Shown: positions 27,769 to 46,999 of the stretch, piece by piece
Layout of the letters: every line of letters begins with the position of its first letter
Position numbering within the stretch: position 1 is the stretch's first letter
DNA from: Planctomycetota bacterium
GTDB taxonomy: Bacteria; Planctomycetota; PLA2; JAEUHO01
Length of the DNA: 64,000 nucleotides
Direction of reading: 5' to 3'
Assembly (NCBI GenBank): GCA_965223505.1
Contig: CBDCWP010000004.1
Location: 15,309 to 79,308 of the forward strand
Position numbers and translations under genes: made by a program
The notes under the pieces: model-generated
Databases searched by the model: none
The model's input: only the letters and a program-made list of their open reading frames with translations
What the model was told of the DNA's origin: nothing

Positions 27769-29106
27769 CTACGCCCCGGAGAACTGCACGCCCTCGAACG
27801 CCATCGTCGGCACGCGCATGGCCGAGCACGGATACGGATCGTTGCCGACGTGCAGCAGCCGCCCGAGCATCCGGAGGTAGTTGCCCGTGATGTTCATCTC
27901 GCCCACGGCTTCGCCGAGCTCGCCGTCCACGATGCGGTTGCCGCGAATGCCGAACGAGAAGTCGCCCGTCGTCGCGTCGGCGTTCCCGCCGGCCCAGTTG
28001 GTCACGTAGATGCCGTTGCCCACCGCCGCGAGGATGCCGTCGCGGTCGTGCTCGCCGTGCGCGAAGACCAGATTCGACGCCGAGCCGCTGGTCGGCTCCC
28101 AGCCGAGCTTGCGGCCGTAGTAGGTGTCGACGTAGAAGCTCTTCAGCACCCCGTTTTCGATCACGGCCCGCGGCCTGGCTGCGATGCCCTCGCCGTCGTA
28201 GTGATGCGAGCCCAGCCCGCGCGCGATCAACGGTTCATCGGTGATCGTGAGAAGCGCGGGCGCGATCGTCTGGTCGCGCTGCTTTTCGAGGAAGGAGCGG
28301 CCCTGCTGGATCGAGGACGCCGTGAGCGCGCCGAAGATGCGCCCGAGAAACGACGCGCCTGCTTCGCGGTCGACGACCATCGTGAAGCGGCCGGACGCGC
28401 CCTTGACCGCGCCGATGCGCCCGATCGCGCGCGCGAGCGCCTCCCGGGCGATCGCATCGTGGCTGCGCATGTCCTCGAGGTGCCGGGCGCAGCCGTAGTC
28501 GTAGGCCTCGGGGCGCTTGTCTCCCTCCCCTTGCACGGTGACCTCGGTGTACGCCGAAATGCGCGTGCCGGCACGCGCGCCGCGAAATCCGTTCGAGCTC
28601 ACGCGCGCGGACGCGCCCGCGCCCATGGCGAGATGACTCGTCGCGCTGATGACGCGCTCGTCGGTGTGCGACGCGGCGTCCATCTTCGACAGCCACTCGA
28701 TGCAGCGGTCGCGGTCCAGCGCTTCGACGGCGGGATCGAAGAGATCGAGGTCGACGTCCGAGCGGCCTTCGTACAGCGCCGGATCGGGGATCGTTCGATA
28801 CGGATCCGGCTCCAACGCGCGGGTCAGCTTGACCGCCTCGCGCAGGAACGGCTTGAGCACCGACGGACGCAGGTCGTTGCTCTGATGCGCCGAGTACCGT
28901 CCGTCCACGTAGAGCTGCACGCCCAGCATGCGACTCGCGCTCTCCTGGACGCGCTCGATCTGGCCGTCGCGGTACGAGTACTCCGTCGAGCGGCCCGTGC
29001 TGACGCCGGTGACCACGTCGTCCGCGCCCGCCGCGAGGGCGAGGGCGAGCGCCTGCTCGGCGTCGTCGAGCAGCTCGGTCTCCGTGGCCTGGTCCGTCGC
29101 CGGCAT
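27769..29106 (-). CDS. tldE: TldE/PmbA family protein
   Basis: PmbA-type motifs (YDGEG, IENGVLKSF, TGDFSFG). No HExxGH. TGATG coupling with tldD. Confidence 0.88.
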   Translation of the reverse strand: MPATDQATETELLDDAEQALALALAAGADDVVTGVSTGRSTEYSYRDGQIERVQESASRMLGVQLYVDGRYSAHQSNDLRPSVLKPFLREAVKLTRALEPDPYRTIPDPALYEGRSDVDLDLFDPAVEALDRDRCIEWLSKMDAASHTDERVISATSHLAMGAGASARVSSNGFRGARAGTRISAYTEVTVQGEGDKRPEAYDYGCARHLEDMRSHDAIAREALARAIGRIGAVKGASGRFTMVVDREAGASFLGRIFGALTASSIQQGRSFLEKQRDQTIAPALLTITDEPLIARGLGSHHYDGEGIAARPRAVIENGVLKSFYVDTYYGRKLGWEPTSGSASNLVFAHGEHDRDGILAAVGNGIYVTNWAGGNADATTGDFSFGIRGNRIVDGELGEAVGEMNITGNYLRMLGRLLHVGNDPYPCSAMRVPTMAFEGVQFSGA

Positions 29107-30539
29107 CAGTCCTGCCCTCCGACGGTGAGCTGCTTGACGAGCACGGACGGGATGCCCTGGCTCACCGGAACCCCCTGGCCGTCCTTGCCGCAGGTCCAGC
29201 CACCCGAGTCGAGCTTGGCGTCGTTCGCGGCCATGGTGATGTCGCGCAGGGCATCGGGGCCGTTGCCGATGATGTTCACGTTGGCGATGGGGGAGGTGAT
29301 CTTGCCGTCCTCGATCAGCCAACCGTTCTTCACGAAGAAGGTGAAGTCGCCGGCGCCGATCTGCACCTGTCCGTTCGTGAACGTCTCGGCGACGATGCCT
29401 CGGTCGACCGACGCGATGATCTCGTCGTAGCTGTGGGGCCCGTTCTCCATGAACGTGCAGCGCATGCGCGGCATGGGGACGTGACGGAAGCTCTCGCGGC
29501 GCCCGGAGCCGGTCGGCTCGATGCCGTATTGCTTGGCGCTGATGCGGTCGTGCATGTAGCTGCGCAGGACGCCGTCCTCGATGAGAACCGTGCGCTCGAC
29601 CGCGTTGCCTTCGTCGTCGACGTTGATCGAGCCGCGCTCGTGTTCGAGCGTGCCGTCGTCGACCACGGTCACGAAGTCGGGCGCGACCTTCTGGTCCATC
29701 ATGGTCGAGTAGATCGATACGTTCTTGCGGTTGAAGTCGGCTTCGAGCCCGTGGCCGATGGCTTCGTGCAGCAGGATGCCGGATGCGCCGGCGGCCAGCA
29801 CGACGGGCATCTCACCCGCGGGCGGCTTGCGCGCGTCGAACAGGATCATCGTGCGCTTGACCGCGTCCTCGACCAGATCGCGCAGCCGCTCGTCGGTGAA
29901 CCACTCGATGCCGTCGCGGCGAACCAGGCTGGCCATGCCGGTCTGGCGTTCGTCGTTCTTCGTCGCATTGACGACGCAGTGCAGGCCCGCCATGGGGCGA
30001 CGATCGGTGAAGATCGCGCCCTCGCTCGTGGCGATGAGCACGCGGTCGTCGCTGTCGAACCAACCCGTCGAGACCTTGTCGACGGCGGGCTCGAGCGCGC
30101 GTGCCAGCTCGTCGATCCGGCGCAACAGCGGCAGCTTCTCCTCGACCGCGACGTCTTCGACGTTGCGCTGGACGGCGTAGTAGTCCGGCAGGCTGCGCAC
30201 CTCGATCGCCTGCGGGGCGACCTTGGCGTTGCCGGCGGCGATGGAGGCCGCGGTGCGCGCCGCGCGGCATAGCGCCTCGACGTCGAGGTCTTCGCTGTAG
30301 GCGTAGCCGGTTTGGTCGCCGATGACGACGCGGACGCCGGCGCCCTGGTCGACGCTCGAGGAGCCGCGGCTGACGATGCCGTCCTCCATGCCGATCGACG
30401 TCGAGTGTTGGTGCTGGAAGTAGACGTCGGCGAAGTCGGCGCCGCGCTCCATGGCGGCGGCGAGGACGCGGCGAAGGAGCGGTTCGTCGATGCCGAACCA
30501 GGTGGCGAACGGGTTGTCTGTCAGTGCGGCGGTCGTCAT
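29106..30539 (-). CDS. tldD: TldD metalloprotease
   Basis: HEAIGHGLEADFNRK, DDEG, PMPRMRCT, CGKDGQGVPV. Confidence 0.93.
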   Translation of the reverse strand: MTTAALTDNPFATWFGIDEPLLRRVLAAAMERGADFADVYFQHQHSTSIGMEDGIVSRGSSSVDQGAGVRVVIGDQTGYAYSEDLDVEALCRAARTAASIAAGNAKVAPQAIEVRSLPDYYAVQRNVEDVAVEEKLPLLRRIDELARALEPAVDKVSTGWFDSDDRVLIATSEGAIFTDRRPMAGLHCVVNATKNDERQTGMASLVRRDGIEWFTDERLRDLVEDAVKRTMILFDARKPPAGEMPVVLAAGASGILLHEAIGHGLEADFNRKNVSIYSTMMDQKVAPDFVTVVDDGTLEHERGSINVDDEGNAVERTVLIEDGVLRSYMHDRISAKQYGIEPTGSGRRESFRHVPMPRMRCTFMENGPHSYDEIIASVDRGIVAETFTNGQVQIGAGDFTFFVKNGWLIEDGKITSPIANVNIIGNGPDALRDITMAANDAKLDSGGWTCGKDGQGVPVSQGIPSVLVKQLTVGGQD

Positions 30540-30608
30540 GGGGAGCAGAGTCTGACAGGGGCTGCGGAGGCTGCCGAACATTCCCGGAAGGCGCCGCGCC
30601 TGATCCCG

Positions 30609-32057
30609 TCAGGTTCGCGCGCCCTGCGGCAGCTCACGGACGTATCGTCGGTAGGTCGCCAGCCAGCGCTCGGGATGGCGCAAGGGATGCACGTATTCGA
30701 GCAGCGCGCCCGGCAGGTCGAACGCCAGGCGGTCCGGAATCGCGTTCCACACACGACAGCGACCGAAGGTCAGTGTCGCCGACGACACCTCGCATCGGAG
30801 GAACGCGAGAAGATCGCGCGCCCAACACTCGAACACGGCGACGTAGTCGCTGACGGGATCGCCCGAGTCCACGGCGACGAACGTAGAGCGCTGCGGTTCG
30901 TACGCGTATACGAATGCGCCGTCGTCCTCCCCGTCGCGCAGCGCCAGGGCGAAGGTCGGGCGCGTCTGCGCGTCGTCCAGCGCCCCGAGCGAGTACAGGT
31001 CCTTGAAGAGGTCCCTTCCATACAGGTGCGCCGCCAACGAGCGCAGCTCGACGTCGAGGGCGTCGAGCTCCTCGTCCGAGAGCGACGCCTGCGAGGTCGC
31101 CGCGTCGTAGTCTTCGAGCCACTCGACGTCGCCGACGAACGTCCGCGCGGGCCACTCGTCCTCGGGCGAAGCGGACAGGAACGGTGTGCCGTGCGCCTGC
31201 TCGACCAACTCACCGTCTATCATCACATACGTGTCGCCGGGCCGAGGCCAACACACACGGTTCGCGGGCAGGAGCGGCTCGAGCGCGAGGGCGTGCGCGC
31301 GCCCGTCCGTCGTGAAGGCATTTCCGTTGAGCCAGGCCCGATCGCCCCCGAAGCAGAATCCGCCGCCGACGACGGCCCAGGCGGCCGGCATTCGGTGGTT
31401 CGCATCGAGCCACTCGCAGATCCCGATGGCGCTTTGCACGAACGTTGCGATCTCTTCCGGATGCGGTCCGCTCCAGCTCGTGAGGAAGTGCCACTCGCTC
31501 CAGTTGTTGGTCTGCCCCCAGACTCCGACGCGGTCGACGCGGGCACGGACCCGCTCGAGCATGTCTTGCGTCGCCGGCATGTCCACGCTGGTGAAGAAGC
31601 TGCCGTGCCCGGCCAGGTCACGTACCAGATACGGCAGGACGTCCCACTCTTCGATGATGGCGTCGCGGCGCTGATCGGCGGACATCGGCAGGAACTCGAG
31701 GCCGCCGACCGTCACGCCCTCGTCCGGGTTCAGCAGACGGACGCCGAATCCCATCTCCGCCAGGATCGTCCGCATGGCGACAGAGGAGCGCGACGACATG
31801 TAGATGGGCACCGAGCGGTCCAGGCAGTGGAGCGAGGCCAGGTCGAAGTGCCCTTCGTGTTCGTGCGTGAGCATGACCGCGTCGAGAGCCGGGAGCGCCG
31901 ATACGTCGACGCGGCGGGGCGGAAACACGCGCAGGCCGACCGCGGGCGTCAGTCCGAACGCGTCGTGCAAGAGGGGATCGACGAGGATCCGCGCATCAGC
32001 GGCCTCGAACAGCCAGCCGTGGTGGCCGAGCGCGGTCATGCGAAAGGCGTCGTTCAT
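30609..32057 (-). CDS. MBL-fold metalloprotein, paralogue 1 (putative RiPP tailoring enzyme)
   Basis: GHHGWLF, ILVDPLL, THEHEGH, FTSVD. C-terminal domain shared with paralogues 2 and 3. Confidence 0.8.
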   Translation of the reverse strand: MNDAFRMTALGHHGWLFEAADARILVDPLLHDAFGLTPAVGLRVFPPRRVDVSALPALDAVMLTHEHEGHFDLASLHCLDRSVPIYMSSRSSVAMRTILAEMGFGVRLLNPDEGVTVGGLEFLPMSADQRRDAIIEEWDVLPYLVRDLAGHGSFFTSVDMPATQDMLERVRARVDRVGVWGQTNNWSEWHFLTSWSGPHPEEIATFVQSAIGICEWLDANHRMPAAWAVVGGGFCFGGDRAWLNGNAFTTDGRAHALALEPLLPANRVCWPRPGDTYVMIDGELVEQAHGTPFLSASPEDEWPARTFVGDVEWLEDYDAATSQASLSDEELDALDVELRSLAAHLYGRDLFKDLYSLGALDDAQTRPTFALALRDGEDDGAFVYAYEPQRSTFVAVDSGDPVSDYVAVFECWARDLLAFLRCEVSSATLTFGRCRVWNAIPDRLAFDLPGALLEYVHPLRHPERWLATYRRYVRELPQGART

Positions 32058-34194: not shown

Positions 34195-35958
34195 TCAAAT
34201 GAAGGTGTAGACCGTCTCGCTGATTCGCCCGCGGCGGTCGGAAGCCCGTAGCCGGCGATGGTATTCCAGTGTGTGTGTCCACGACGAGGGCAGCATCTCC
34301 CGGTCGATGACGAAGTCCTCTAGGACCAGCGCGTCCAGGCGTGCGTCGACGGCGCACAGCAGGGCTTCGGCCGGCGTGCGCACGATCGGCTCGCCGCGGA
34401 CGTTGAACGACGTGTTCACCAACACGGGGCAGCCCGTCAGTTCTTCGAACGCCGAAAGCAGCGCGGCGAACCTGGGCGCGACCGATGGATCCACCGTCTG
34501 GGGGCGCGCCGATCCGTCGACGTGCGTGATCGCCGGCAGGTCGAGCTTCGAGTCGACCCGGCACGTCTCCAACATGAACGGAGACGGGTGATCGAGCGCG
34601 AAGTGTTCGGCGGTGCGATCGGCGAGCACCGCCGGCGCGAACGGCCGGAACCCCTCCCGTTTCTTGATCCGCTCGTTCAGGCGGCTCTGCATCTGCGGGT
34701 CGCGTGGGTCCGCGAGGATGCAGCGCGCGCCGAGCGCGCGGGGGCCGAACTCCATTCGGCCCTGGAACCAACCTACGACCTGTCCGGCCGCGAGTCGTCG
34801 CGCGACGTCGGCGACGAGCTGTCCTTCGTCGTGCCGGAACGCGGCTGCCTCGATCCCGACGCCCTCCAGCAGCCGCGCGACGTCGTCGCGCGCGAACGAC
34901 GGACCGAGGCAGACGTCCTCCAGTCGCCGAGTGTCCGGTCGATGCCCCGTGAGTCGCACATGCGCCAGCGCGGCGGCGCCGAGCGCGCCGCCCGCATCGC
35001 CCGCGGCCGGCTGGACGAACACGTTGCCGAACGGGCCCTCCCGCGCGATGCGACCGTTTGCGACGCAGTTGAGCGCCACGCCGCCGGCCATGCAGAGGTT
35101 GTCCGAGGCGACGAGCCCGGCGAGACGGGAGACGGCGTCGAGCAGGATGTCTTCGAGCACGACCTGCAGACTGCGAGCGATGTCCTTGTGTCGTTGGCGC
35201 AGTGGCTCGTCGGGCCGTCGTGCCGGCCCGCCGAGCAGGTCGCAGAGCGCGTCGGTGTACATGCGATCTGCGCGACGAAATTCGAAGTACGAGAGGTCGA
35301 GCGCGTAGTGTCCGGCGCCGTCCGGCGTGCTCAGCGCGCGAATCGCATCGACGCAGGTCGGTCGCCCGTAGGGAGCGAGTCCCATCACCTTGTACTCGCC
35401 ACTGTTGACAGCGAACCCGAGGTATCCGGTGATCGTGCTGTACAGCAGGCCCAGCGAGTGGGGGAAACGCACCTCGTCGAGCAACTCGATCTCGGCGCCC
35501 TGAGCGCGTCCGTAGGTCGTCGTCGCCCACTCGCCGACGCCGTCGACCGTCAGCACCGCCGCGTCGTCGAACCCGGAGAAGAAGTACGCGCTCGCCGCGT
35601 GCGACATGTGATGCTCGAAGGACTCGATCCGTCCCTCGTGGCCGAGGAGCTCGCGAATGTCCCGTTCCGGCCGTCCCGGGTCGATCCAGCGAAGATCCTG
35701 CGCTCCGCCGAGCGGACAGCCTGCCCAAATCTGTCTAGCCAGCTTGAGCGGCGGCGACTCGTAGTATGCGACACAGTCCACGTCGTCGATGTCGATCGCC
35801 CCCTCGTCCAGGCAGAATCGGAATGCATCCACGGGAAGCCGCCCGTCGTGCTTGATGCGCGAGAAGCGCTCCTGGGCGGCGGCGGCGACGAGCACGCCGT
35901 CCGAGATCAGGCAGCATGCGGACTCGTGGAAGTACATGGAGAGACCGATGATGTTCAC
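34195..35958 (-). CDS. carbamoyltransferase (NodU/CmcH/TobZ family)
   Basis: HESA, ERFSRIKH, EHHMSHAASA, DGVGE, EYKVMGLAPYG, AGGVALNC, EFGPRALG, KKREGFRPFAP, HVDGSARPQ, NTSFN. GTG start overlaps the upstream stop. Confidence 0.95.
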   Translation of the reverse strand: MNIIGLSMYFHESACCLISDGVLVAAAAQERFSRIKHDGRLPVDAFRFCLDEGAIDIDDVDCVAYYESPPLKLARQIWAGCPLGGAQDLRWIDPGRPERDIRELLGHEGRIESFEHHMSHAASAYFFSGFDDAAVLTVDGVGEWATTTYGRAQGAEIELLDEVRFPHSLGLLYSTITGYLGFAVNSGEYKVMGLAPYGRPTCVDAIRALSTPDGAGHYALDLSYFEFRRADRMYTDALCDLLGGPARRPDEPLRQRHKDIARSLQVVLEDILLDAVSRLAGLVASDNLCMAGGVALNCVANGRIAREGPFGNVFVQPAAGDAGGALGAAALAHVRLTGHRPDTRRLEDVCLGPSFARDDVARLLEGVGIEAAAFRHDEGQLVADVARRLAAGQVVGWFQGRMEFGPRALGARCILADPRDPQMQSRLNERIKKREGFRPFAPAVLADRTAEHFALDHPSPFMLETCRVDSKLDLPAITHVDGSARPQTVDPSVAPRFAALLSAFEELTGCPVLVNTSFNVRGEPIVRTPAEALLCAVDARLDALVLEDFVIDREMLPSSWTHTLEYHRRLRASDRRGRISETVYTFI

Positions 35959-39082: not shown

Positions 39083-39094
39083 TGGTTTGCGCTT

Positions 39095-39300
39095 CTAGAA
39101 AACCTGGTTCGCGAAATGCACCGCGTCCTGCACGCCGTTGCTTGCGGGGTTGATGAAGACGGAGTAGATGTCGCCTTCGGAGGCGGGAAGAGGGCGCTCG
39201 GCCAACCCGAAGTAACCACGGCAACGCCGGCGGCGTTGTCACTGAGGCCCCCGCGGGTCAAACGCATGTCCTTCTTGGAAAGCTGCTTCGTGAAGTCCAT
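39095..39300 (-). CDS. double-glycine RiPP precursor peptide B (apparent 1-nt frameshift; ORF track gives 38998-39309)
   Basis: Leader MDFTKQLSKKDMRLTRGG. Adding one C at the C-run (+ strand GGG 39185-39187) gives the core LSDNAAGVAVVTSGWPSALFPASEGDIYSVFINPASNGVQDAVHFANQVF*, with GC3-rich codons and a downstream hairpin. Confidence 0.62.
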
Positions 39301-39455: not shown

Positions 39456-41747
39456 TCACTTGTTCCTCGGCGGCGTGTTCGCGCGGACCGCTTCGATGAG
39501 GACGTCGCCGGTGGTCTGCAGGCTCGCCCGCGATACCCGCTCCACGCGGTCCTCCGACGTGTGTCGGAATCGATTGCGACCGGCGCGTCGAACGGGATCG
39601 GCGCCGCCGAAGTCGAAGTCGCACAGCAACGCCGCCGGGATGCCGGCGCGAAGAAACGGGATGTGGTCGTTGCGCACGGCGATCGGAATGCTGTGGGCGC
39701 GCGCTATCTCGAAGTAGCGTCCGTAGCCCAACCGTGCTCCGGCGTCGAGCAGCGATGCCGCCACCGACGTCGTGGAGCGTAGATCGTCGGTGAACTGCAG
39801 TCGCTCGTCGCCGACCATGTCGCAGACGACGACCGCGATCAGCCGGTCGACCTCGCCGGCGGCGACGACGTGCTCGACGAATGCGCGGCTGCCGTACAAG
39901 CCGTGGCGCGGACCCGAACGCCCCAGCGCCTCCTTGCCGTCGAAGAACGCGATCCGCACCGCCGGACGGGGCTTCATGGCCGCCAGGACACGCGCGCACT
40001 CGATCAGGACGGCGGCGCCAGAAGCGCCTTCGTTCGCGCCGGTGAAACCCGACACCCCCTCCAGCCGCTTCGTGTCGAGGTGCGTCGCGAGAAGAACGTA
40101 TCGTTCGTCACGCTCGCCTGGCAACGAGGCGAGCGTGTTCTTCAGGACCCGTCCCCCGCCCGGCGTTTGCACTGCGACGTCCTCGATCTCCACTGACCAA
40201 CCCGCGGCCTCGAGCTGCGCGCGCACGTACCCGCGTGCGTTCTCCAGGGCCTCGCTGCCGAGGGGACGCGGACCCAGCTCGGCCAGGGCGACGAGGTCCG
40301 CCATCGAACGATCGGCGTCGAACGGCGTTCGCGCAGCGGGCGCCGGTCGCGGCGAGAGCGGCGGCGGCGCTTCGGTCGGCGTCGTCGGCGTCACCGCGGC
40401 GCCTCCGCTCAGGCCGAACAGGCGACGCACCGGTTCGAAGAGCAAGCTGACGATCCGCGGTCGCTCGGTCACGATCTCCGCGGAGAGCGTCAGCCCTGCG
40501 CGCAGTGCAAGCCCCTCCGGTGCGTCGCCTTGCACACGCTGTACGGCGAGGCGTCCGGTGAACACCGACGCGCCCGTCGTAGGGTCCTCCGTCGGTACCA
40601 GCGCGACACTCTCCAACCGTGCCTTCACGACGCCGAAGCGCTCGAACGGATACGCGTCGAGCTTGATCTTGCAGAGCGCGCCGGGTCGCAGAGCCGCGGC
40701 GTCGCGATTGGCGAACGTCGCGGTCGCCGCCACGTGGGGGGACGTGGAGATCGAAAATGCAGGCGTGTCCGCCTCGACCCGGTCGCCCGGAACGATCGGC
40801 GCCGCGAAGTTGATCAACCCGCTCACCGGCGCATGCAGGACCAGCAGCTCGAGCACGCGCTCGCTCGCGTCGATCTCCGCCTCGAGCTTCTCGATGTCCG
40901 CGCGCGCCGTGTCGCGGGTGGCCCGCGTACGCGCGGCCGCGTCGCGCAGCGCGGCCTGCGCGGATTCCAGTCGGCTCTTCGCGGCGGCGACGCGTTCGTC
41001 GGCTTCGATGGTGATCACGTCGAGCGCCTGACGCGCCTCGCGCAACGCCGCTTTCGCACCCTCGACGAGTCCGCGCTGCGCGTCACGCTTGGCGATCGCC
41101 GCGTCGTGCGTCTCGCCGTCGATCAGCTTCTTCTTGTACAACGTCGTCGCGCGCTCGGCCGCCTTGTCGTCCCTACGAAGGGTGGCTTCGGCGGCGGTCA
41201 GCGCCGCCTGCTTGGCCTCGAGGCGTGCGCGCTCGAGCTCCACCCGGCGCGGAATGACCGTCTCGCGATGACGCAGCTCTCGCGTGTGCGCGTCGCGCGC
41301 TGCGCGCCAGTCTTCGATCGTCTCGGCGGCGGCGACGTCGGCGACGGCCTTCGCTTCGCCCGACGCCAGGAGGGCCGCCAGCGCGGTGACGGTCTCGTCG
41401 AGGGTCGTCCACTGCCGGTGCGCGCGACCGTGGTCCTTGCGCAGCCGCTCCAGACGCCCGCGTTCGGCTGCGTCTTCCAACCGCAGGAGCAGCTGTCCGG
41501 CTCGCACCTGCTCGCCTTCGGCCGCGTAGACCTCCGCGACGACGCCGGCGGTCGAGAGCCGTACGTCCGTGCGCTCGTCCACGGCGACGAGCAGCCCGCG
41601 GCCGACGACGACCCGATCGACGCGCACGACCGTCACGAACGTTCCGACCGCGCCCAGCAGGAGGAGCAACAGCCACAACAGCAGCCGACGCCCGCGCGCG
41701 CCGACCGCGGGCTTGGCGGGACGGGGCAGGATGGCGCCGCCGCTCAT
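39456..41747 (-). CDS. HlyD-family adaptor fused to an M28 peptidase/glutaminyl-cyclase-like domain
   Basis: TM helix, GEQVRAGQLLLRL, coiled coil, APVSG, KLDAYPFERFG, LRAGLTLSAEI. Then a Pro/Thr linker, then THLDTK, GANEGASG, FFDGKE, LYGSR, DMVGD, NDHIPF, RHT. Confidence 0.85.
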   Translation of the reverse strand: MSGGAILPRPAKPAVGARGRRLLLWLLLLLLGAVGTFVTVVRVDRVVVGRGLLVAVDERTDVRLSTAGVVAEVYAAEGEQVRAGQLLLRLEDAAERGRLERLRKDHGRAHRQWTTLDETVTALAALLASGEAKAVADVAAAETIEDWRAARDAHTRELRHRETVIPRRVELERARLEAKQAALTAAEATLRRDDKAAERATTLYKKKLIDGETHDAAIAKRDAQRGLVEGAKAALREARQALDVITIEADERVAAAKSRLESAQAALRDAAARTRATRDTARADIEKLEAEIDASERVLELLVLHAPVSGLINFAAPIVPGDRVEADTPAFSISTSPHVAATATFANRDAAALRPGALCKIKLDAYPFERFGVVKARLESVALVPTEDPTTGASVFTGRLAVQRVQGDAPEGLALRAGLTLSAEIVTERPRIVSLLFEPVRRLFGLSGGAAVTPTTPTEAPPPLSPRPAPAARTPFDADRSMADLVALAELGPRPLGSEALENARGYVRAQLEAAGWSVEIEDVAVQTPGGGRVLKNTLASLPGERDERYVLLATHLDTKRLEGVSGFTGANEGASGAAVLIECARVLAAMKPRPAVRIAFFDGKEALGRSGPRHGLYGSRAFVEHVVAAGEVDRLIAVVVCDMVGDERLQFTDDLRSTTSVAASLLDAGARLGYGRYFEIARAHSIPIAVRNDHIPFLRAGIPAALLCDFDFGGADPVRRAGRNRFRHTSEDRVERVSRASLQTTGDVLIEAVRANTPPRNK

Positions 41748-44700
41748 CCCACCTGCTCCGCGTGGAACATGGCATACAAGCCGCCTTGCTCGAGGAGGGC
41801 GGCGTGGGTGCCTTGCTCGGCGACGCGGCCCCGTTCGAGCACCACGATGCGATCCGCCCGCCGCGCGTACCCGAGGCGGTGCGCGAGGAACACCACGGTG
41901 CGGTCGCGGCTGGTCTCGTCCAACGCGTTCAAGAGCGCGGCCTCGCTTTCCATGTCGAGCGAGCTCGTCGGCTCGTCGAGCAGCAGGAGTCTCGGCTGCC
42001 CCACGAGCGCGCGCGCGATCGCGAGACGTTGGAGCTCACCGCCGGAGAACCGTGCCGTGCTCCGCTCGCCGACGAGCGTACCGTAACCCTGCGGGCGATT
42101 GATGATCTGGTCGTGGATCCCCGCAGCCTGCGCAGCGGCGATGATGTCCGCTGCTGCGAGCTCGCGGCCGACCGCGATGTTCTCCATGATCGTTCCGGAA
42201 AGCAGCTCGATCTTCTGCGGAACGAATCCGACCTGGCGGCGCAGCGATCGCGCCGAGACGTTGCGCAGGTCGTGACGATCGACGTAGACCGAACCCTTCT
42301 CGGGTTGAAAGAGCTTCAGCAGCAGATGAACGAATGTGGTCTTGCCCGCGCCGCTGCGTCCGACGATCGCGACGCGTTCGCCGGGCAGGACCTCGAGCGA
42401 GAGATCTTCGAAGACCGGCGGTAGGTCCCGTTCGTAGCGAAACGTGACATTCTCCAGGCGAATGTGGCCTTCCACGGAGCCGATGTCGAGCAACGACTCC
42501 GTCTGCGGTTCCTCCGGCGAAGCGTCGAACACCTGGCTGAGCCGCTCGAGCGAGACCGCCGTCTCCTGAAAGCTCTCCCAGATCCCCAGCAAGCGCGTCG
42601 CGGGCGCGAGCACCTGGGCTAGCACGGCCGAGAAAGCGACGTACGCACCGACGCTGAGCGAACCGTCGATCACGAACCGTGCGCCGAAGTAGATGACCGC
42701 GGCTTGGCCGCACGCGCCAATGAACGTGCCGAGCGTCTGCGACAACGTCACGAGGCGCACCCCGCGCAGCTCCGAGGCGAGCATCCGGTGGAAGAGACGC
42801 TCGTATCGGCGCCGTTCCGCATGTTCCGCGTTCGCGCCCTTGACCGTGACGACCGACGAGAGCGAGTCGACGAGGGCGGACTGGGTCTCGCCCTGGCGGG
42901 TCACCTGCTCTCGGCGGATGCGACGCAGGCGCGGTGTGATGAACCACGTGAGCAGTGCCAACAGCGGAATCGGAAACAGTCCGATGATTGCGAGCTCGAC
43001 GTCGTAGCACAGGAGCACGATCAGGTACACGGCCCCCAACGCGACGTCCAGGATGGCGCCCGTCGCGACGGTCGTGAGGAAGTGACGGACCTTCTCGTTG
43101 TCCGCGAACCGCACGAGCAGGTCGCCGACCTTGCGCGACGCGAAGAACTGCAGCGGCAGGCGAAAGAGCTTGTGGTGGAAATCGCTCACCAGCGCCAGGT
43201 CGGCCGCACGCACGACGTCGTAGAGCAGCAGCGTGCGCAGCGCGCCGATCAGCGCGGAGAAGAGCGCGGCGCCGATCATCGCGGCCAACAACGCGATCAG
43301 GATCGACACCTCGCCGTGGACGAACACCCGATCGATGACGGTCTGTGTCGTGAAGGGGATGACGAGACCAAGCAGCTGCAATGTGAAGGCGGCCAGCAGC
43401 ACCTGGAAGATGACGCCGCGGTGGGGCCGCAGGTAGGGCAGAAAGCGCGAGAGCCCCTTCGGTCGTCCGCCCGCGTCTTCGGGCGGCGCGGAGGTGGGCC
43501 GCAACAACAGCAAGGTGCCGTCCCACCCTTCCATGAACGCCTTGAGCGGTATGCGCTTGAGCCCCTGCATCGGGTCTGCCACGACGACACGTCGTCGCGA
43601 GACGGCGTACAAGACGACGAAATGATTGCCGCCGACGTGCGCGATGGCGGGCAGCCGCACGTTGCGCAGGTCGTCCGCCCCTTCGACGCCGACGCCGCGG
43701 GCGAGGAAGCCGATGTCCTCGGCGGCTTCGGCCAGCGACAGGAGGGAACAGCCTTGCTGCGAGACGCACGCGAGCTCGCGCAGCCGCCCGTGCAACGCCG
43801 GCCGTCCGTAGAAGTCCGCGATCATGCCCAGGCAGGCCGGACCGCAGTCGGTCGCGTCCGGTTGGAGCCGCAAGGGGTACCTGTGCAACGCCCGTCGCAG
43901 TGCGCGTCCGACGAGCGTGCCCGGCGGTTCCAGCAGACGGGGATCGAGCGCCTCTTCGAGCTCCTCCTCGACGGTTTCATGCGACGCGCTGCGTGTCGGC
44001 GTGCGGCGTCCGCGGTGCGACAGGGCGGCCACGAGGGTCGCGAAGAACGGCCGCAGGGCCCGCGCCTCTTCGTCGGACGCGGCAAGCACGAGCCGCCGCC
44101 CCGGCGACAGCGCCACGATGTCGGCCGGCTCCGGCGTGTCGAGCGCCATGCCGGCTTCGCCGAAGGTGTCGCCGCTCACCAGCATGCGCGGCGAGTCGTG
44201 CGCGTCCCCGGCCTCGCGGCGAGCGCGTCCTTCGACAAGGAGCGAGAAGCCGTCGGCGCGCTCGCCCTGGCGGGCCAACACGTCGCCGGCGGCGAACGCC
44301 TGGGGTGCGAGCGCGAGGACGACGTTGCGGACGATCTCGGCGTCGACGGACGTCGCGTCGAGATCGTCCAAGAAGGCACGCAGCGCCGGCTCCCCGAGCG
44401 CGGCCGTCAACGGTCGAAGCGACGGGTCGTTGTCGAGCACGCTTCGATCGAGGCGCAACACGGTCATCGCCGTCTCGACGTGCACGGCATCGCCGCCCGG
44501 CGCCTCGCCGAAGAGCTGTCCCCGGAACGCGACGCCGCCTTGTCCGACGGGCGCGTCGCCGCCCTCGGATCTCCCCATCCCGTCGAGCACGAGTAGGGCG
44601 CCCTTGGACGGCGGGATCACGGCGCCGCGTTTGAAGCGTGCGCGCTCGCCGTGCGCCGCGAGTTCCGTGCAGGCGTTGCGTCCGAGCACCCGCAGCACGG

Positions 44701-44752
44701 CGTCGGCGAGTAGCAACCGGGCTGTTCGCCGGAGTTCGGGGTCGTCCTGCAC
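41744..44752 (-). CDS. peptidase-containing ABC transporter (cNMP-binding-like, C39, TMD, NBD)
   Basis: Q..ATDCGPACL, NHFVVL, VADP (C39 triad intact). GRSGAGKTT, FSGGELQR, LLLDEPTSSLD. N-terminal cNMP-like segment GDVLARQGE..GDTFGE. Confidence 0.92.
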   Translation of the reverse strand: MQDDPELRRTARLLLADAVLRVLGRNACTELAAHGERARFKRGAVIPPSKGALLVLDGMGRSEGGDAPVGQGGVAFRGQLFGEAPGGDAVHVETAMTVLRLDRSVLDNDPSLRPLTAALGEPALRAFLDDLDATSVDAEIVRNVVLALAPQAFAAGDVLARQGERADGFSLLVEGRARREAGDAHDSPRMLVSGDTFGEAGMALDTPEPADIVALSPGRRLVLAASDEEARALRPFFATLVAALSHRGRRTPTRSASHETVEEELEEALDPRLLEPPGTLVGRALRRALHRYPLRLQPDATDCGPACLGMIADFYGRPALHGRLRELACVSQQGCSLLSLAEAAEDIGFLARGVGVEGADDLRNVRLPAIAHVGGNHFVVLYAVSRRRVVVADPMQGLKRIPLKAFMEGWDGTLLLLRPTSAPPEDAGGRPKGLSRFLPYLRPHRGVIFQVLLAAFTLQLLGLVIPFTTQTVIDRVFVHGEVSILIALLAAMIGAALFSALIGALRTLLLYDVVRAADLALVSDFHHKLFRLPLQFFASRKVGDLLVRFADNEKVRHFLTTVATGAILDVALGAVYLIVLLCYDVELAIIGLFPIPLLALLTWFITPRLRRIRREQVTRQGETQSALVDSLSSVVTVKGANAEHAERRRYERLFHRMLASELRGVRLVTLSQTLGTFIGACGQAAVIYFGARFVIDGSLSVGAYVAFSAVLAQVLAPATRLLGIWESFQETAVSLERLSQVFDASPEEPQTESLLDIGSVEGHIRLENVTFRYERDLPPVFEDLSLEVLPGERVAIVGRSGAGKTTFVHLLLKLFQPEKGSVYVDRHDLRNVSARSLRRQVGFVPQKIELLSGTIMENIAVGRELAAADIIAAAQAAGIHDQIINRPQGYGTLVGERSTARFSGGELQRLAIARALVGQPRLLLLDEPTSSLDMESEAALLNALDETSRDRTVVFLAHRLGYARRADRIVVLERGRVAEQGTHAALLEQGGLYAMFHAEQVG

Positions 44753-44844: not shown

Positions 44845-46194
44845 CTACTCGCCCGCTTCGTCGGCTTCGGCCAACCCGTATCGAAGCAGCTTGCGGTACA
44901 GCGTCTTGCGATCGACGCCCAGGATCGCCGCCGCGCGCCGGCGAACACCGCCGACGCTCTTCAGCACCGACAAGATGTGCGCGCGCTCGACCGCTTCCAG
45001 CGTCTGCAGCGAACCCGGCGCCGCGTCCGACTTGCGCTCGTTCCCGTGGCGAATGACCGAAGGCAGCTCGTCCACGTCGATGCGCGGACCGCGCGCGAGC
45101 GCCACGGCGCGCTCGATCACGTGCGCCAGCTCCCGGACGTTGCCGGGCCACGGATACGAGTGCAGCGCGGCGAGGGCGTTGTCCGTGATCTTCGCCGCCT
45201 TGCCGGCCGTGGCGAATCGGCGTAGGAAGTGGCCGACGAGCAACGGAATGTCCTCGACGCGATCGCGCAACGGCGGAACGCGGATCGTCACCGCGTTCAA
45301 GCGATACAGGAGATCCTCGCGGAAGCTCCCGTCCCGAACGGCCGTATCGAGGTCGCAGTTCGTGGCCGCGAGCACACGCACGTCCACGTGGCGCACCGAC
45401 GACGACCCCACGCGCCGCACCTCGTTGGACTCGAGCACGCGCAGCAGCTTCGCCTGCACGGCTAGGGGCATGTCCCCGATCTCGTCGAGCAGGATCGTGC
45501 CCTTGTCCGCGGCTTCGAAGAGACCGGGACGGTCCGCGTTCGCGCCGGTGAACGCGCCGCGCACGTGGCCGAACAGTTCGCTCTCCAGCAGTCCCTCCGG
45601 CAACGAGGGACAGTTCACGGCGACGTACGGACCGCTCGAGCGCGGGCCCGCGTCGTGGATCGCGCGCGCAACCAGTTCCTTGCCGGTGCCGGTCTCGCCT
45701 TGCACGAGCACGGACACCGTCAGGGGTGCGACGCGCGCGATCGACTTGAACACCCGCGTCATGGCCTCCGAGCGGCCGACCATCGCGCGCTTCGCTTCGC
45801 CGCGCTCCATCGACGCCTCGCCCGCCTCGCCGCGCGCCTCGGCGGCGCGCTTCACCATGCGGCAGATCTCGTCCATGGAGAACGGCTTGCTCATGTAGTC
45901 GAACGCGCCGGCGTGAATCGCCTCGACGGCCGTCTCCAGCGACCCGAACGCGGTGACGACGATCGCTTGCAGCTTCGGATCCCGCTCGCGCAGCGTGCGC
46001 ATGAGCTCGATGCCGTCCATGCCCTCGAGCCTTACGTCCGTGACGACGACGTCCACCGTCTCGCCGTTCATCGCCTCCAACGCGGACTCCGCGCTGTCGG
46101 CCGCGCTCACGTCGTAGCCTTCGCCTCGCAGGACCTCGACGAGGAGGTTGCGCGCAACCGCGTCGTCTTCCACGATCAACACGCTCGTGCCCAT
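44845..46194 (-). CDS. sigma-54-dependent response regulator (NtrC/AtoC family)
   Basis: REC domain (VEDD, TDV, KPF), GETGTGKE, ESELFGH, GAFTGA, WPGNVREL, Fis-type HTH. Confidence 0.93.
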   Translation of the reverse strand: MGTSVLIVEDDAVARNLLVEVLRGEGYDVSAADSAESALEAMNGETVDVVVTDVRLEGMDGIELMRTLRERDPKLQAIVVTAFGSLETAVEAIHAGAFDYMSKPFSMDEICRMVKRAAEARGEAGEASMERGEAKRAMVGRSEAMTRVFKSIARVAPLTVSVLVQGETGTGKELVARAIHDAGPRSSGPYVAVNCPSLPEGLLESELFGHVRGAFTGANADRPGLFEAADKGTILLDEIGDMPLAVQAKLLRVLESNEVRRVGSSSVRHVDVRVLAATNCDLDTAVRDGSFREDLLYRLNAVTIRVPPLRDRVEDIPLLVGHFLRRFATAGKAAKITDNALAALHSYPWPGNVRELAHVIERAVALARGPRIDVDELPSVIRHGNERKSDAAPGSLQTLEAVERAHILSVLKSVGGVRRRAAAILGVDRKTLYRKLLRYGLAEADEAGE

Positions 46195-46195
46195 C

Positions 46196-46999
46196 TCAGC
46201 GCTCCTCGCCCAGCGGCTCGATGGTGAGCGTGACCACGGTGCCGATGCCCGGCTTGGAGTCCAGAAGGATGTCGCCACCGTGCGCCTTCGCGATCTCCCG
46301 GCAGATGGCGAGACCGAGGCCGGATCCGCGGCCCGCCCCCTTGGTCGAGAAGAAGGGCTCGAAGACGTGGTCCATGTGCCGCGACGAGACCCCGTGCCCG
46401 GAGTCGCAGACGGAGATGGCGCGGCCGGCGCCGGTGGCGTCGGTTCGAATGACGAGCGTGCCGCCCTTGGGCATCGCGTCGATCGCGTTTTGAACGAGAT
46501 TGAGGAAGACCTGTTCGAGCTGATCGCGGTCGCACGCGATCGGCGCTTCCGACCCGGCGCCGATGTCGAGTTCGAGTTGAATCTCGTTCTTGGTCAGCAG
46601 AGGTTCGAGAACGTCGAGGACGTGCACGAGCAGGGCGTGAATGTCGGTCGGCGTCGGCTCGGGCTCGGGGCCTCGCAGTCGGCGCAGGTAGCGCCGAATG
46701 AGCAGCGAGAGGCGAGAGACCTGGTCCGCGATGATCTCGGTGCGGCGGCGCGCGTCGTCCGGAAGCGCCGGGTCCGCGAGCATGAGGTCGAGATGTCCGG
46801 AGATGGAGTGCAGAGGCGTGCCGAGCTCGTGCGCGAGACGGCCGACCAACGCGCCGAGTGCGGCGACCCGCTGCGCTTGCGCGAGCTTGCGCTGCATGTC
46901 GAGCAGGGTCGGCGACGTCGCGTCCTGCGTGGGCTCGGACGGCGGCGTCTGCGTGGCGCGCTCTTCGCTCTGACGCGCATCCGCGTTCATACGTGACAC
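46196..46999 (-). CDS. sensor histidine kinase lacking an obvious input domain
   Basis: AHELGTPL, QVFLNLVQNAIDAM, DSGHG, FEPFFSTK, GSGLGL. No TM helix. Start uncertain. Confidence 0.88.
   Translation of the reverse strand: MSRMNADARQSEERATQTPPSEPTQDATSPTLLDMQRKLAQAQRVAALGALVGRLAHELGTPLHSISGHLDLMLADPALPDDARRRTEIIADQVSRLSLLIRRYLRRLRGPEPEPTPTDIHALLVHVLDVLEPLLTKNEIQLELDIGAGSEAPIACDRDQLEQVFLNLVQNAIDAMPKGGTLVIRTDATGAGRAISVCDSGHGVSSRHMDHVFEPFFSTKGAGRGSGLGLAICREIAKAHGGDILLDSKPGIGTVVTLTIEPLGEER

What the first reader, a model, noticed from the sequence alone, without database searches (positions are those of the whole stretch)
27769..46999. Putative new RiPP class: double-glycine precursors with three MBL-fold proteins, a carbamoyltransferase and an SGNH hydrolase
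Seen: 13 consecutive minus-strand genes, most overlapping or under 100 nt apart (HK, sigma-54 RR, C39 ABC exporter, HlyD-M28, precursors B and A, MBL3, MBL2, carbamoyltransferase, SGNH/TPR, MBL1, tldD, tldE). Known: C39 exporters cut GG leaders, NodU/CmcH/TobZ enzymes carbamoylate hydroxyls or amines, some MBL-fold enzymes are iron hydroxylases (CmlA, PqqB), and TldDE matures microcin B17. No YcaO, LanM/LanB, radical SAM or P450 is present, so the cluster lacks the class-defining enzymes of the RiPP families I know. Inference: the MBL proteins hydroxylate core residues, which are then carbamoylated, giving an exported carbamoylated peptide.
Basis: partly seen in the sequence, partly recalled or inferred. 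Interest (0 to 1): 0.92.

Follow-up and report, generated by a model that had tools for sequence, protein, structure and literature searches.

The report
Candidate new peptide natural-product gene cluster
A tightly packed bacterial operon links exported double-glycine peptides to a rare family of metallo-enzymes, a carbamoyl-adding enzyme and an esterase, and is probably an undescribed type of modified-peptide pathway whose chemistry is still unknown.

Summary
The gene row is real. Thirteen minus-strand genes lie at 27769-46999, and 11 of 12 junctions are 100 nt or less. They encode HK, a sigma-54 RR, a cNMP-C39-ABC exporter, a HlyD-M28 fusion, two GG-leader peptides, three MBL paralogs, a carbamoyltransferase (CT), an SGNH-TPR hydrolase and TldD/TldE.

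- Precursor B changes frame after its leader.
- MBL3 has lost the metal motif.

The MBL proteins belong to a rare family: 334 representatives in 1.84 billion proteins. The fold is an MBL domain plus an SCP2-like C-terminal domain. It matches hydrolases and diiron hydroxylases equally well, so hydroxylation is not shown.

In 48 genome loci the family is single-copy, and 38 have no RiPP hallmark. The window's own clade is different: three of its four genome loci have a leader-like peptide next to the gene.

The CT-SGNH pair recurs in a Streptomyces NRPS-type cluster, with the CT 58% identical.

Verdict: probably a new variant of RiPP pathway (about 0.55). Hydroxylation followed by carbamoylation is only one option. 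I found no description of this architecture in print.

The parts
46196..46999 (-). Cytoplasmic histidine kinase, 267 aa (HisKA + HATPase_c, no sensor domain found)
   Evidence: Pfam. Its end overlaps the RR start by 2 nt.
44845..46197 (-). NtrC-type sigma-54-dependent response regulator (receiver + AAA+ + HTH_8)
   Evidence: Pfam Sigma54_activat 1.4e-68. NCBIfam ntrC 2.7e-135, below its cut-off. GAFTGA motif present. No TGGC-N8-TGC site upstream of the precursors.
41744..44752 (-). ABC exporter, 1002 aa, with an N-terminal cNMP-binding region, a C39 peptidase domain, a membrane domain and an ATPase
   Evidence: Pfam Peptidase_C39 1.4e-28, ABC_membrane, ABC_tran, cNMP_binding 6e-10. NHLM_micro_ABC1 3.7e-146, below its cut-off. 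C39 Cys (DCGPAC) and His (NHFVV) motifs are present.
39456..41747 (-). HlyD-type periplasmic adaptor fused to a C-terminal M28 / glutaminyl-cyclase-like domain, 763 aa
   Evidence: Pfam HlyD_3 and Peptidase_M28 2.8e-27. In the PDB, residues 492-756 match an M28 peptidase (7d18, 2e-29), then insect, bacterial and human glutaminyl cyclases.
39247..39300 (-). Precursor B leader (18 aa ending in GG). The reading frame downstream is uncertain.
   Evidence: GG-leader motif match. GC3 follows the leader frame to about 39240, then another frame that stops near 39098.
38998..39246 (-). Precursor B core region. The frame-0 ORF runs to 38998, but codon bias favours a second frame ending near 39098. This is a frameshift, a sequencing error or a pseudogene.
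38656..38898 (-). Precursor A, 80 aa: a 28-aa leader ending ELREMRGG and a 52-aa Asn/Ala-rich core with two NALWA motifs and no Cys
   Evidence: GC3 0.80-1.00 in windows along the ORF. No relative found in a word-indexed search of 5.8 billion proteins.
37420..38625 (-). MBL3, 401 aa: a degenerate paralog of the MBL+SCP2-like family. The HxHxxH motif and the Glu/Asp of the EEWD segment are lost; the C-terminal domain is kept.
   Evidence: No Pfam hit. 31% identical to MBL2, E 2e-40. Motif table. Family HMM 1.6e-100 and C-terminal-domain HMM 1.5e-58.
35955..37415 (-). MBL2, 486 aa: MBL domain with HEHEDH, plus an SCP2-like C-terminal domain
   Evidence: Pfam. AlphaFold model pLDDT 94. Foldseek. 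Groups with metagenome proteins P0006 and P0008.
34195..35931 (-). NodU/CmcH/TobZ-family carbamoyltransferase, 578 aa
   Evidence: Pfam N and C domains, about 1e-67 each. PDB: NovN 2.9e-97, GdmN 1.2e-94, TobZ 1.2e-82. 58% identical over its full length to the CT of Streptomyces plasmid NZ_CP109497.
32054..34189 (-). SGNH hydrolase, 711 aa, with a TPR insert and a C-terminal part of about 300 aa with no match found
   Evidence: The atlas search gave no usable hit for residues 425-711. 30% identical over its full length to the hypothetical protein that follows the CT in NZ_CP109497.
30609..32057 (-). MBL1, 482 aa: same family, with motif HEHEGH (the canonical Asp replaced by Gly)
   Evidence: Pfam. 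47% identical to MBL2. Motif table.
29106..30581 (-). TldD-like metalloprotease with an HExxxH motif
   Evidence: Pfam. NCBIfam TldD 1.3e-124, 416 bits, below the 513-bit cut-off. Motif at residue 272.
27769..29109 (-). TldE/PmbA-like partner, with no HExxxH motif
   Evidence: Pfam. NCBIfam PmbA 1.6e-50, below its cut-off..

Best explanation
This is a RiPP-type biosynthetic operon of a kind that has not been described.

Shown:
- One intact precursor with a double-glycine leader (A) and a second, frame-disrupted one (B) lie between an export unit and a run of enzymes that are probably co-transcribed.
- The export unit is a C39-ABC exporter plus a HlyD adaptor fused to an M28/glutaminyl-cyclase-like domain.
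- The enzymes, in order, are MBL3, MBL2, the carbamoyltransferase, the SGNH-TPR hydrolase, MBL1, TldD and TldE.

Inferred:
1. The MBL+SCP2-like proteins are the class-defining maturases. MBL1 and MBL2 keep a metal site. MBL3 is a non-catalytic paralog that may hold the peptide or pair with an active paralog.
2. Their chemistry is open: oxidative (CmlA-like) or hydrolytic or other. The target may lie at or near Trp.
3. [quoted passage not shown] The acceptor is probably a hydroxyl (Ser, Thr or an installed OH) and less probably an amine.
4. Its conserved SGNH partner acts as an esterase or peptidase on the same substrate, as the Ser/Asp/His hydrolase CgnD does in crocagin biosynthesis.
5. The C39 domain cuts after GG during export. 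The periplasmic M28/QC-like domain and perhaps TldD/E process the ends.
6. The HK and sigma-54 RR probably control expression.
For: Operon structure:
- preA to MBL3 is 30 nt. All enzyme junctions are 27 nt or less or overlap.
- Two of only three GG-leader motif matches in the 64 kb lie here.
- The C39 Cys and His motifs are present.

Family association with peptides:
- Leader-like short ORFs lie directly upstream of the MBL gene in L001, L002, L006, L038, L044 and L048.
- In L004 such an ORF lies two genes upstream. That locus also has a C39-ABC, a HlyD, a sigma-54 activator and a protein with a marginal PqqD/RRE hit of 23.3 bits.
- LanB dehydratases adjoin the MBL gene in L007 and L023.
- L008 has a Trp halogenase, a 2OG oxygenase, an S8 peptidase and a CT.
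- Control test: 4 of 40 MBL genes against 7 of 374 other genes carry an upstream leader-like ORF (Fisher p = 0.015).
- The window's paralogs fall in a clade with SH-aLRT support of 96 (33 rows). Three of its four genome loci (L001, L002, L006; not L005) have such peptides.
- By matching contig lengths, two metagenome contigs carry 3 and 2 paralogs of that clade.

Enzyme competence:
- The MBL1 and MBL2 motifs are intact, and Glu135, Asp157 and His453 are conserved in 93 of 93, 93 of 93 and 86 of 93 rows.
- The SGNH triad is conserved. TldD has HExxxH.
- The CT matches O-carbamoyltransferases over its full length.

Core composition: Trp occurs in 5 of 7 candidate cores (p = 0.015, post hoc).
Against: - No modification has been observed.
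- 38 of 48 genome loci of the MBL family show no peptide, exporter or other RiPP hallmark among up to two flanking genes on each side. The family as a whole is therefore not RiPP-specific.
- The SCP2-like domain is a lipid- or alkyl-binding fold, not an RRE.
- The SGNH family (at least 338 hits, mostly Thermoanaerobaculia and other Acidobacteriota) shares a contig length with an MBL hit only once.
- SGNH was found in 0 of 55 fetched loci. The CT and TldD/E were each found in 1 of 55.
- The CT-SGNH pair also serves an NRPS-type cluster.
- Precursor A has no detectable relatives, and precursor B is frame-disrupted.
- No sigma-54 promoter was found before the precursors.
- The peptide-enrichment test is crude. 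Its motif was chosen after the first hits had been seen.
Confidence: 0.55

Rival explanations
1. Two neighbours, not one pathway. HK/RR, the C39-ABC exporter, HlyD and the GG peptides form an ordinary export locus for an unmodified bacteriocin or pheromone. MBL3-MBL2-CT-SGNH-MBL1 (with or without TldD/E) make or degrade an unrelated small molecule or lipid. This would resemble the gvg-like or NRPS-linked esterase-plus-carbamoyltransferase modules.
For: - Most MBL-family loci (38 of 48) lack RiPP hallmarks. Several lie beside lipid or ester enzymes: WS/DGAT plus carboxylesterase in L018, L021 and L025; PLD in L022, L035 and L045; acyl-CoA dehydrogenase in L014 and L020.
- The best sequence match in the PDB is NAPE-PLD, and the C-terminal domain is SCP2-like.
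- The CT-SGNH pair sits in a Streptomyces NRPS/AsnB/ATP-grasp cluster.
- An esterase/lipase plus CT core is described for gvg and gvg-like clusters (PMC8064604 and bioRxiv 10.1101/080572, passages read).
Against: - Only 30 nt separate precursor A from MBL3, and no terminator-like site lies between them. The three sites found are inside genes.
- The window's MBL clade is the one that has adjacent leader-like peptides.
- gvg clusters themselves need small ORFs, so that analogy does not exclude a peptide substrate.
Confidence: 0.27
2. One reading: MBL1 and MBL2 are iron-dependent hydroxylases of core residues, and the new hydroxyls are then O-carbamoylated, giving +16 and +43 Da. This is a sub-case of the best explanation.
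For: - CmlA and FrsH are among the top structural and sequence matches.
- Motif III is Glu rather than His in all 93 active-type rows. From memory, CmlA has the same feature.
- The CT resembles O-carbamoyltransferases.
- Crocagin shows beta-hydroxylation followed by carbamoylation in a myxobacterial RiPP (PMC10070186, passages read).
Against: - Hydrolases score the same (3rpc, SaxA, NAPE-PLD, UlaG).
- From memory, MBL-fold alkylsulfatases also carry Glu at motif III, and they share the SCP2-like domain.
- The canonical Asp of HxHxDH is Gly in 28 of 32 rows of the window's clade. That argues against a standard two-metal site.
- The core already holds Ser and Thr, which could be carbamoylated without hydroxylation.
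Confidence: 0.18
3. The MBL proteins are not maturases. They act as self-protection or turnover hydrolases that cleave or inactivate the peptide product.
For: The MBL fold is mostly hydrolytic. In many loci a single MBL gene follows a short peptide gene with no other enzyme (L001, L002, L006, L038).
Against: Three paralogs, one of them catalytically dead, placed between the precursor and the tailoring enzymes is atypical for immunity genes. No test bears on this directly.
Confidence: 0.05

Closest known systems
Crocagin pathway of Chondromyces crocatus (CgnA-L)
   Same: It is a myxobacterial RiPP. A NodU-type carbamoyltransferase (CgnI) acts after beta-hydroxylation. An esterase-like Ser79/Asp325/His328 hydrolase (CgnD) frees the core. 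Paralogous proteins include a non-catalytic one (CgnE) that guides the oxidation (PMC10070186, passages).
   Different: Oxidation there is by a 2OG dioxygenase (CgnC), not an MBL protein. CgnA has an 18-aa Lys-rich leader, not a GG leader. The SGNH profile found no CgnD-like chain in the PDB, and the MBL profile found no CgnB or CgnE. This is a resemblance in logic, not membership.
Std cluster of Streptomyces thermodiastaticus (StdF)
   Same: A NodU-like carbamoyltransferase acts on a ribosomal peptide. The paper states that carbamoyltransferases in RiPPs are exceedingly rare, with crocagin and StdF the only two cases (PMC13174530, passages).
   Different: StdF is fused to an S8/S53 peptidase and carbamoylates the epsilon-amine of Lys. 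That cluster is defined by YcaO/TfuA and an MNIO, which are absent here.
Double-glycine leader / C39 peptidase-ABC export systems (class II bacteriocins, NHLP/Nif11-type systems)
   Same: A GG leader with the usual hydrophobic spacing, a C39 domain with the Cys and His motifs, and a HlyD adaptor.
   Different: The exporter carries an N-terminal cNMP-binding region, and the adaptor is fused to an M28/QC-like domain. The NHLP-specific NCBIfam models are matched only below their cut-offs.
CmlA / FrsH diiron beta-hydroxylases (MBL fold)
   Same: The N-terminal MBL domain matches at Foldseek E about 2e-9 to 3e-9 and at profile E 7e-8 to 3e-6. Motif III is Glu.
   Different: Those enzymes act on carrier-protein-bound amino acids and have a different extra domain. 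The match covers the MBL core only (TM 0.35-0.38) and is no better than the match to hydrolases.
MBL-fold (type III) alkylsulfatases SdsA1 / YjcS / Pisa1
   Same: The same two-part build: an MBL domain followed by an SCP2-like C-terminal domain (supported by the atlas lead).
   Different: The Foldseek hits are weak (E 6e-3 to 1e-1, TM to query 0.27-0.29). No Pfam alkylsulfatase domain was detected. The full-length model did not list them among its top 50 hits.
gvg and gvg-like clusters (4-formylaminooxyvinylglycine; core gvgA esterase/lipase, gvgB small ORF, gvgC, gvgF carbamoyltransferase)
   Same: An esterase/lipase, a NodU-type CT and required small ORFs are encoded together. gvg-like variants are reported in Proteobacteria and Streptomyces (PMC8064604, bioRxiv 10.1101/080572 and PMC4010436, passages).
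   Different: GvgA is about 320 aa, not 711. No heme-oxygenase-like GvgC was seen here. The product there is a small amino acid.
TldD/TldE in microcin B17 maturation
   Same: A TldD/TldE pair with the HExxxH motif in TldD stands at the end of a peptide operon. The microcin role is recalled, not read here.
   Different: In E. coli the pair is a housekeeping enzyme encoded away from the mcb operon. Here its involvement rests on spacing alone. A TldD/E pair lies within 10 kb of the MBL gene in only 1 of 55 other loci (L002).

Membership tests
RiPP biosynthetic gene cluster (general definition) | A short precursor gene with a leader and a core | tested here: met
   Precursor A has a 28-aa GG leader and a 52-aa core with high GC3. 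Precursor B has a leader, but its core frame is broken.
RiPP biosynthetic gene cluster (general definition) | A leader peptidase or exporter encoded with the precursor | tested here: met
   C39-ABC with the Cys and His motifs, plus HlyD.
RiPP biosynthetic gene cluster (general definition) | Enzymes that modify the core peptide | not testable with these tools
Known RiPP classes (lanthipeptide, YcaO/azoline, radical SAM, P450, MNIO, lasso, graspetide) | The class-defining enzyme domain is present | tested here: not met
   No such Pfam domain among the 13 cluster proteins or the 18 flanking ORFs scanned. Window positions 1-17.7 kb were not scanned.
Metallo-beta-lactamase superfamily | HxHxDH motif and the alpha-beta/beta-alpha fold | tested here: met
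   MBL2 has HEHEDH. MBL1 has HEHEGH, with the Asp lost. MBL3 has lost the motif. The fold is confirmed for MBL2.
CmlA-type diiron beta-hydroxylase | A carboxylate-rich two-iron site and oxygen-dependent hydroxylation | tested here: inconclusive
   The structural and sequence matches equal those to hydrolases. Glu at motif III is conserved, but Asp66 is Gly in 28 of 32 rows of the clade. Metal content and activity cannot be tested here.
MBL-fold alkylsulfatase (SdsA1 type) | MBL domain, dimerisation domain and SCP2-like C-terminal domain | tested here: inconclusive
   The SCP2-like fold is supported weakly. There is no Pfam Alkyl_sulf hit.
RiPP recognition element (PqqD-like RRE) | A winged-helix RRE domain in a cluster protein | tested here: not met
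   No PqqD hit among the window proteins. The MBL C-terminal domain folds as SCP2-like, not as an RRE. Only the L004 neighbour has a marginal PqqD hit.
NodU/CmcH/TobZ carbamoyltransferase | The Kae1-like and YrdC-like halves are both present | tested here: met
   Both Pfam domains at about 1e-67. Full-length matches to NovN, GdmN and TobZ. The NodU equivalog cut-off is not reached (158.6 against 1000 bits), so it is not NodU itself.
SGNH/GDSL hydrolase | Block I Ser, block III Asn and block V DxxH | tested here: met
   GES, GNNW and DYCH are present and conserved at 90% or more in 118 homologs. The Pfam score is below its cut-off.
TldD/TldE (PmbA) protease pair | Two adjacent paralogs, one with HExxxH | tested here: met
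   Pfam domains. The motif is in TldD only. The NCBIfam equivalog cut-offs are not reached.
gvg-like cluster | Homologs of GvgA, GvgB, GvgC and GvgF encoded together | not tested
   This is known from passages of the papers only.
Crocagin-type cluster | CgnB/CgnE-family peptide-binding proteins plus the CgnC dioxygenase | tested here: not met
   No 2OG oxygenase domain in the cluster. No CgnB or CgnE chain among the PDB hits of the MBL profile.

The most novel reading that the evidence does not exclude
The MBL+SCP2-like proteins are a new class-defining family of RiPP maturases. They would work as a set of paralogs: an Asp-type enzyme (MBL2), a Gly-type enzyme (MBL1) and a dead paralog (MBL3) that presents the peptide. 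They would carry out a so far unknown metal-dependent modification at or near Trp in GG-leader or xRAG-leader peptides. In this cluster the product would be further carbamoylated by a portable CT-SGNH module, giving only the third known carbamoylated RiPP.
Probability: 0.3. Interest if true: 0.82.

Novelty: new variant of a known kind. Interest (0 to 1): 0.62.

Why it matters
- If the MBL+SCP2-like proteins act on the peptides, this opens a new RiPP class with a new enzyme fold for peptide tailoring and probably new chemistry.
- The family is small: 334 representative clusters at E of 1e-30 or better among 1.84 billion proteins. It is mostly from uncultured Myxococcota and other soil or water bacteria, so it would be missed by rule-based mining tools that look for known core enzymes.
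- It would add a third case of carbamoylation in RiPPs, which a 2026 preprint calls exceedingly rare (PMC13174530).
- It points to a reusable carbamoyltransferase-esterase pair shared between ribosomal and non-ribosomal pathways.
- The dead paralog offers a test case for pseudo-enzymes as peptide chaperones.
- If the rival is right, the locus is an ordinary bacteriocin exporter beside an unknown small-molecule pathway. The MBL family would still lack a known function.

Tried and rejected
**Sigma-54 promoter.** TGGC-N8-TGC gave 18 matches in the window against 10.4 expected. None lies upstream of the precursors, so the regulator link stays positional.

**Sigma-70 promoter and terminator scan of 27000-46999.** It found 0 promoters and 3 terminator-like sites, all inside genes and fewer than in shuffles. 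It was uninformative. A first attempt was over the size limit.

**Precursor A relatives.** Only the protein itself was found. The search is word-indexed, so this is weak evidence of absence.

**Precursor A against the L001 peptide.** They share only GG-(M/L)-RH at the same position (E 0.055). This is not significant.

**All-against-all clustering of neighbour ORFs.** The first run timed out. The reduced run found no conserved neighbour beyond ABC transporters, seen in 9 loci.

**Looking for peptides in L005, L008 and L023 by eye.** None was convincing.

**SGNH against the PDB.** The single-sequence search found nothing. The profile search found only TPR proteins and weak GDSL lipases.

**Atlas search of the SGNH C-terminal part.** No usable hit.

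**NCBIfam.** No model exists for MBL1, MBL3, SGNH or the precursors.

**RRE-Finder paper.** It was listed for 'metallo-beta-lactamase', but the term is not in its main text.

**Complex prediction (MBL2 alignment plus precursor A).** It was never accepted. The queue was full at 16 hand-ins, and the tool was then declared unavailable. There is no result of any kind.

**Plasmid search with MBL2.** It found only N-terminal matches of about 120 aa to generic Streptomyces MBL hydrolases. I did not follow these up.

**Considered and rejected:**
- The MBL C-terminal domain as an RRE.
- MBL3 as an active enzyme.
- The 100-aa frame-0 ORF as the true precursor B.

Full report
**1. The observation**

The window is about 68% G+C. 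From 46999 down to 27769 the minus strand carries 13 genes.

Pfam gave hits for 10 of the 13 proteins:
- TldE and TldD.
- MBL1 and MBL2 (Lactamase_B_2/_3).
- A carbamoyltransferase (CT) with both halves, each at about 1e-67.
- A 711-aa protein with a sub-threshold GDSL_2 match.
- A HlyD adaptor fused to Peptidase_M28.
- A 1002-aa protein with cNMP_binding, Peptidase_C39 and ABC domains.
- An NtrC-type regulator and a histidine kinase.

MBL3 and the two peptides gave no hit. NCBIfam has no model for MBL1, MBL3, the SGNH protein or the peptides.

The junction gaps are -2, 92, -4, 155, 99, 30, 4, 23, 5, -4, 27 and -4 nt. A GG-leader expression matches three places in the six-frame translation of the whole window. 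Two of them are the neighbouring precursors.

The expected motifs are present: the Cys and His motifs of C39, HExxxH in TldD, and the Ser, Asn and DxxH blocks of SGNH. The flanks are unrelated: RtcB lies downstream and a HEAT-repeat protein upstream.

**2. Corrections**

Precursor B has a good leader. Its codon bias leaves the leader frame near 39240 and continues in another frame, which stops near 39098. The gene is frameshifted, mis-sequenced or decaying.

MBL3 is a true paralog: E 2e-40 to MBL2 and 1.6e-100 to the family HMM. It has lost both His of HxH, the third His, and the Glu/Asp of the EEWD segment. It keeps the C-terminal domain. It is most simply read as non-catalytic.

**3. What the MBL proteins are**

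The family is rare.
- A word-indexed search of 5.8 billion proteins gave 50 hits. These include the window's own two proteins, and only one hit carries a name, a Pyxidicoccus fallax hypothetical protein.
- An exhaustive profile search of 1.84 billion representatives gave 334 at E of 1e-30 or better.

The AlphaFold model of MBL2 is confident (pLDDT 94). Foldseek matches cover only the N-terminal 300 residues or so. A putative hydrolase (3rpc), CmlA, FrsH, the isothiocyanate hydrolase SaxA, NAPE-PLD and UlaG all sit at E about 1e-9 to 4e-8 with TM 0.33-0.40. By sequence profile the order is NAPE-PLD (5.9e-10), FrsH (7e-8), then CmlA (2e-6), over residues 2-120 only.

The C-terminal 190 residues were modelled separately (pLDDT 91). 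They give weak but consistent SCP2 matches. These include the SCP2-like domains of the MBL-fold alkylsulfatases SdsA1, YjcS and Pisa1. A language-model search had independently pointed to an SCP2-like family. The domain is not an RRE.

The fold therefore does not say whether these are oxygenases or hydrolases.

**4. Related loci**

A scan of one genome per species returned 55 loci. Of these, 48 (L001-L048) encode a full-length-type relative. Most are Myxococcota MAGs. Some are Alphaproteobacteria, Acidobacteriota and others.

Gene content:
- tblastn with the 13 window proteins found the SGNH protein in 0 of 55 loci, the CT in 1 (L008) and TldD/E in 1 (L002).
- An HMM search found a second family member in none of them. 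Only the window has three.

Neighbour genes were scanned with Pfam in all 48 loci. The scan covered a wider stretch in ten loci and up to two genes on each side in the other 38.

Ten loci show RiPP-type features:
- L001, L044 and L048 have GG-leader ORFs directly upstream. In L044 the MBL is fused to a PIG-L domain. L048 also has a C39-ABC.
- L002, L006 and L038 have short ORFs ending in a G-x-R-A-G motif followed by cores of 6-16 residues.
- L004 has a GG peptide, an unknown gene, the MBL, a protein with a marginal PqqD hit, a C39-ABC, a HlyD and a sigma-54 activator.
- L007 and L023 have an adjoining LanB dehydratase.
- L008 has a Trp halogenase, a 2OG oxygenase, an S8 peptidase and a CT.

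The other 38 loci show nothing of the kind. Several of these lie beside lipid or ester enzymes.

In a fixed test, 4 of 40 MBL genes against 7 of 374 other genes have a leader-like ORF just upstream (p = 0.015). The test is crude, and I framed its motif after seeing the first hits.

**5. Phylogeny**

The tree has 95 rows: 47 loci, 45 metagenome proteins and the 3 window paralogs. I left out L028, P0016 (which is MBL1 itself) and P0020, P0024 and P0047 as too short.

The window paralogs fall in one clade of 33 rows with SH-aLRT support of 96. It contains four genome loci. Three of them (L001, L002, L006) have adjacent leader-like peptides, and L005 does not.

In this clade the Asp of HxHxDH is Gly in 28 of 32 rows. 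It is Asp in all 61 rows of the other two groups. The window has one enzyme of each type plus the dead copy.

Trp is present in 5 of 7 candidate cores (p = 0.015, post hoc), and L008 has a Trp halogenase next to the MBL.

**6. The CT-SGNH pair**

The SGNH family is larger than the MBL family: at least 338 hits, with the named ones mostly from Thermoanaerobaculia. Its catalytic blocks are conserved. Only one of the 119 listed relatives shares a contig length with an MBL hit.

In the plasmid collection a single relative was found, on Streptomyces sp. NBC_01431 plasmid NZ_CP109497. There it directly follows a carbamoyltransferase, inside a cluster with NRPS, ATP-grasp, AsnB and luciferase-like monooxygenase genes. 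That CT is 58% identical to the window's over its full length, and the partner is 30% identical. The pair is therefore a portable module.

[quoted passage not shown] I could not test homology to those proteins.

The CT matches the O-carbamoyltransferases NovN, GdmN and TobZ.

**7. Comparison with the literature**

Six full-text searches found no paper describing an MBL-fold core enzyme with a CT and an SGNH hydrolase in a RiPP cluster. The library covers open-access papers and bioRxiv only.

A 2026 preprint states that crocagin and StdF are the only RiPP-linked carbamoyltransferases (PMC13174530, passages).

Crocagin biosynthesis is the closest in logic (PMC10070186, passages). It combines hydroxylation guided by paralogous proteins, one of them non-catalytic, with a Ser/Asp/His hydrolase that removes the leader, followed by carbamoylation. 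None of its defining proteins is present here.

**8. Verdict**

The locus is most likely a RiPP-type operon of an undescribed architecture (about 0.55). The main rival is an ordinary GG-peptide export locus beside an unrelated small-molecule or lipid pathway (about 0.27).

The hydroxylation-then-carbamoylation scheme is one possible version (about 0.18). It is a sub-case of the best explanation, so these figures are not meant to add up.

TldD/E membership and sigma-54 control are positional inferences only. The binding prediction could not be run. The contexts of the closest metagenomic relatives could not be fetched.

Noticed in passing
window 39098-39300 (-): Precursor B: codon bias switches frame about 20 codons after the GG site. 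The second frame ends in a plausible high-GC3 tail that stops near 39098. This is a frameshift, an assembly error or a decaying gene.
   Followed up: partly
window 39456-41747 (-), residues 492-756: The M28 domain fused to the HlyD adaptor matches glutaminyl cyclases (insect, bacterial and human) almost as well as aminopeptidases. A periplasmic N-terminal cyclase or trimming enzyme tethered to the export adaptor would be unusual. Neither core begins with Gln or Glu directly after the GG site.
   Followed up: partly
window 43900-44752 (-), N-terminal ~290 aa of the exporter: A cyclic-nucleotide-binding-like region precedes the C39 domain of the ABC exporter (cNMP_binding 6e-10). This suggests ligand-gated export.
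   Followed up: no
window 50620-59323: There are three copies of a Mutator-family transposase gene (413 aa each). Two 1397-nt copies are 100% identical and inverted (52899-54295 and 57927-59323), bracketing 3.6 kb of lower G+C. A third copy is 89-92% identical. A tRNA gene at 59368-59440 abuts the last copy.
   Followed up: partly
window 17703-19022 (+): A single ORF combines LpxC with a FabA/FabZ-like domain and is followed by an LpxA-like acyltransferase.
   Followed up: no
L007 4940-9654 (-) and L023 6693-9956 (-): Full-length LanB-type dehydratases lie divergently next to the MBL gene in two Polyangia MAGs. L007 also has a 52-aa peptide with a K-T-G-I-K-A-G leader end and a Cys- and Thr-containing core.
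   Followed up: partly
L044 10001-12226 (+): Here the MBL-family protein is fused to a PIG-L (LmbE-like deacetylase) domain and is preceded by a GG-leader ORF with a 10-residue core. The record title names Bifidobacterium, although the contig is 66% G+C.
   Followed up: no
L008 1244-12348: A Burkholderiaceae MAG has, around its MBL gene, a tryptophan halogenase, a 2OG-Fe(II) oxygenase, an S8 subtilase and a carbamoyltransferase with an N-terminal extension of about 330 aa. No precursor was recognised.
   Followed up: partly
L056 (NZ_CP109497.1 453381-479144): This Streptomyces plasmid cluster encodes AsnB, a CT (58% identical to the window's), an SGNH-like hypothetical protein, a MupA-type monooxygenase, an MFS transporter, a Thr/Ser dehydratase, an ATP-grasp enzyme and NRPS genes. 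A 55-aa hypothetical ORF lies nearby. Its product is not known to me.
   Followed up: partly
L046 4779-5975 (-): An arylsulfotransferase gene follows the MBL gene in an Acidobacteria MAG. This is notable because the fold resembles MBL-type sulfatases, but it is a single case.
   Followed up: no
window 26419-27693 (-): An RtcB RNA ligase gene follows TldE on the same strand after 75 nt. From memory, rtcB is under sigma-54 control in E. coli. No link to the cluster was tested.
   Followed up: no
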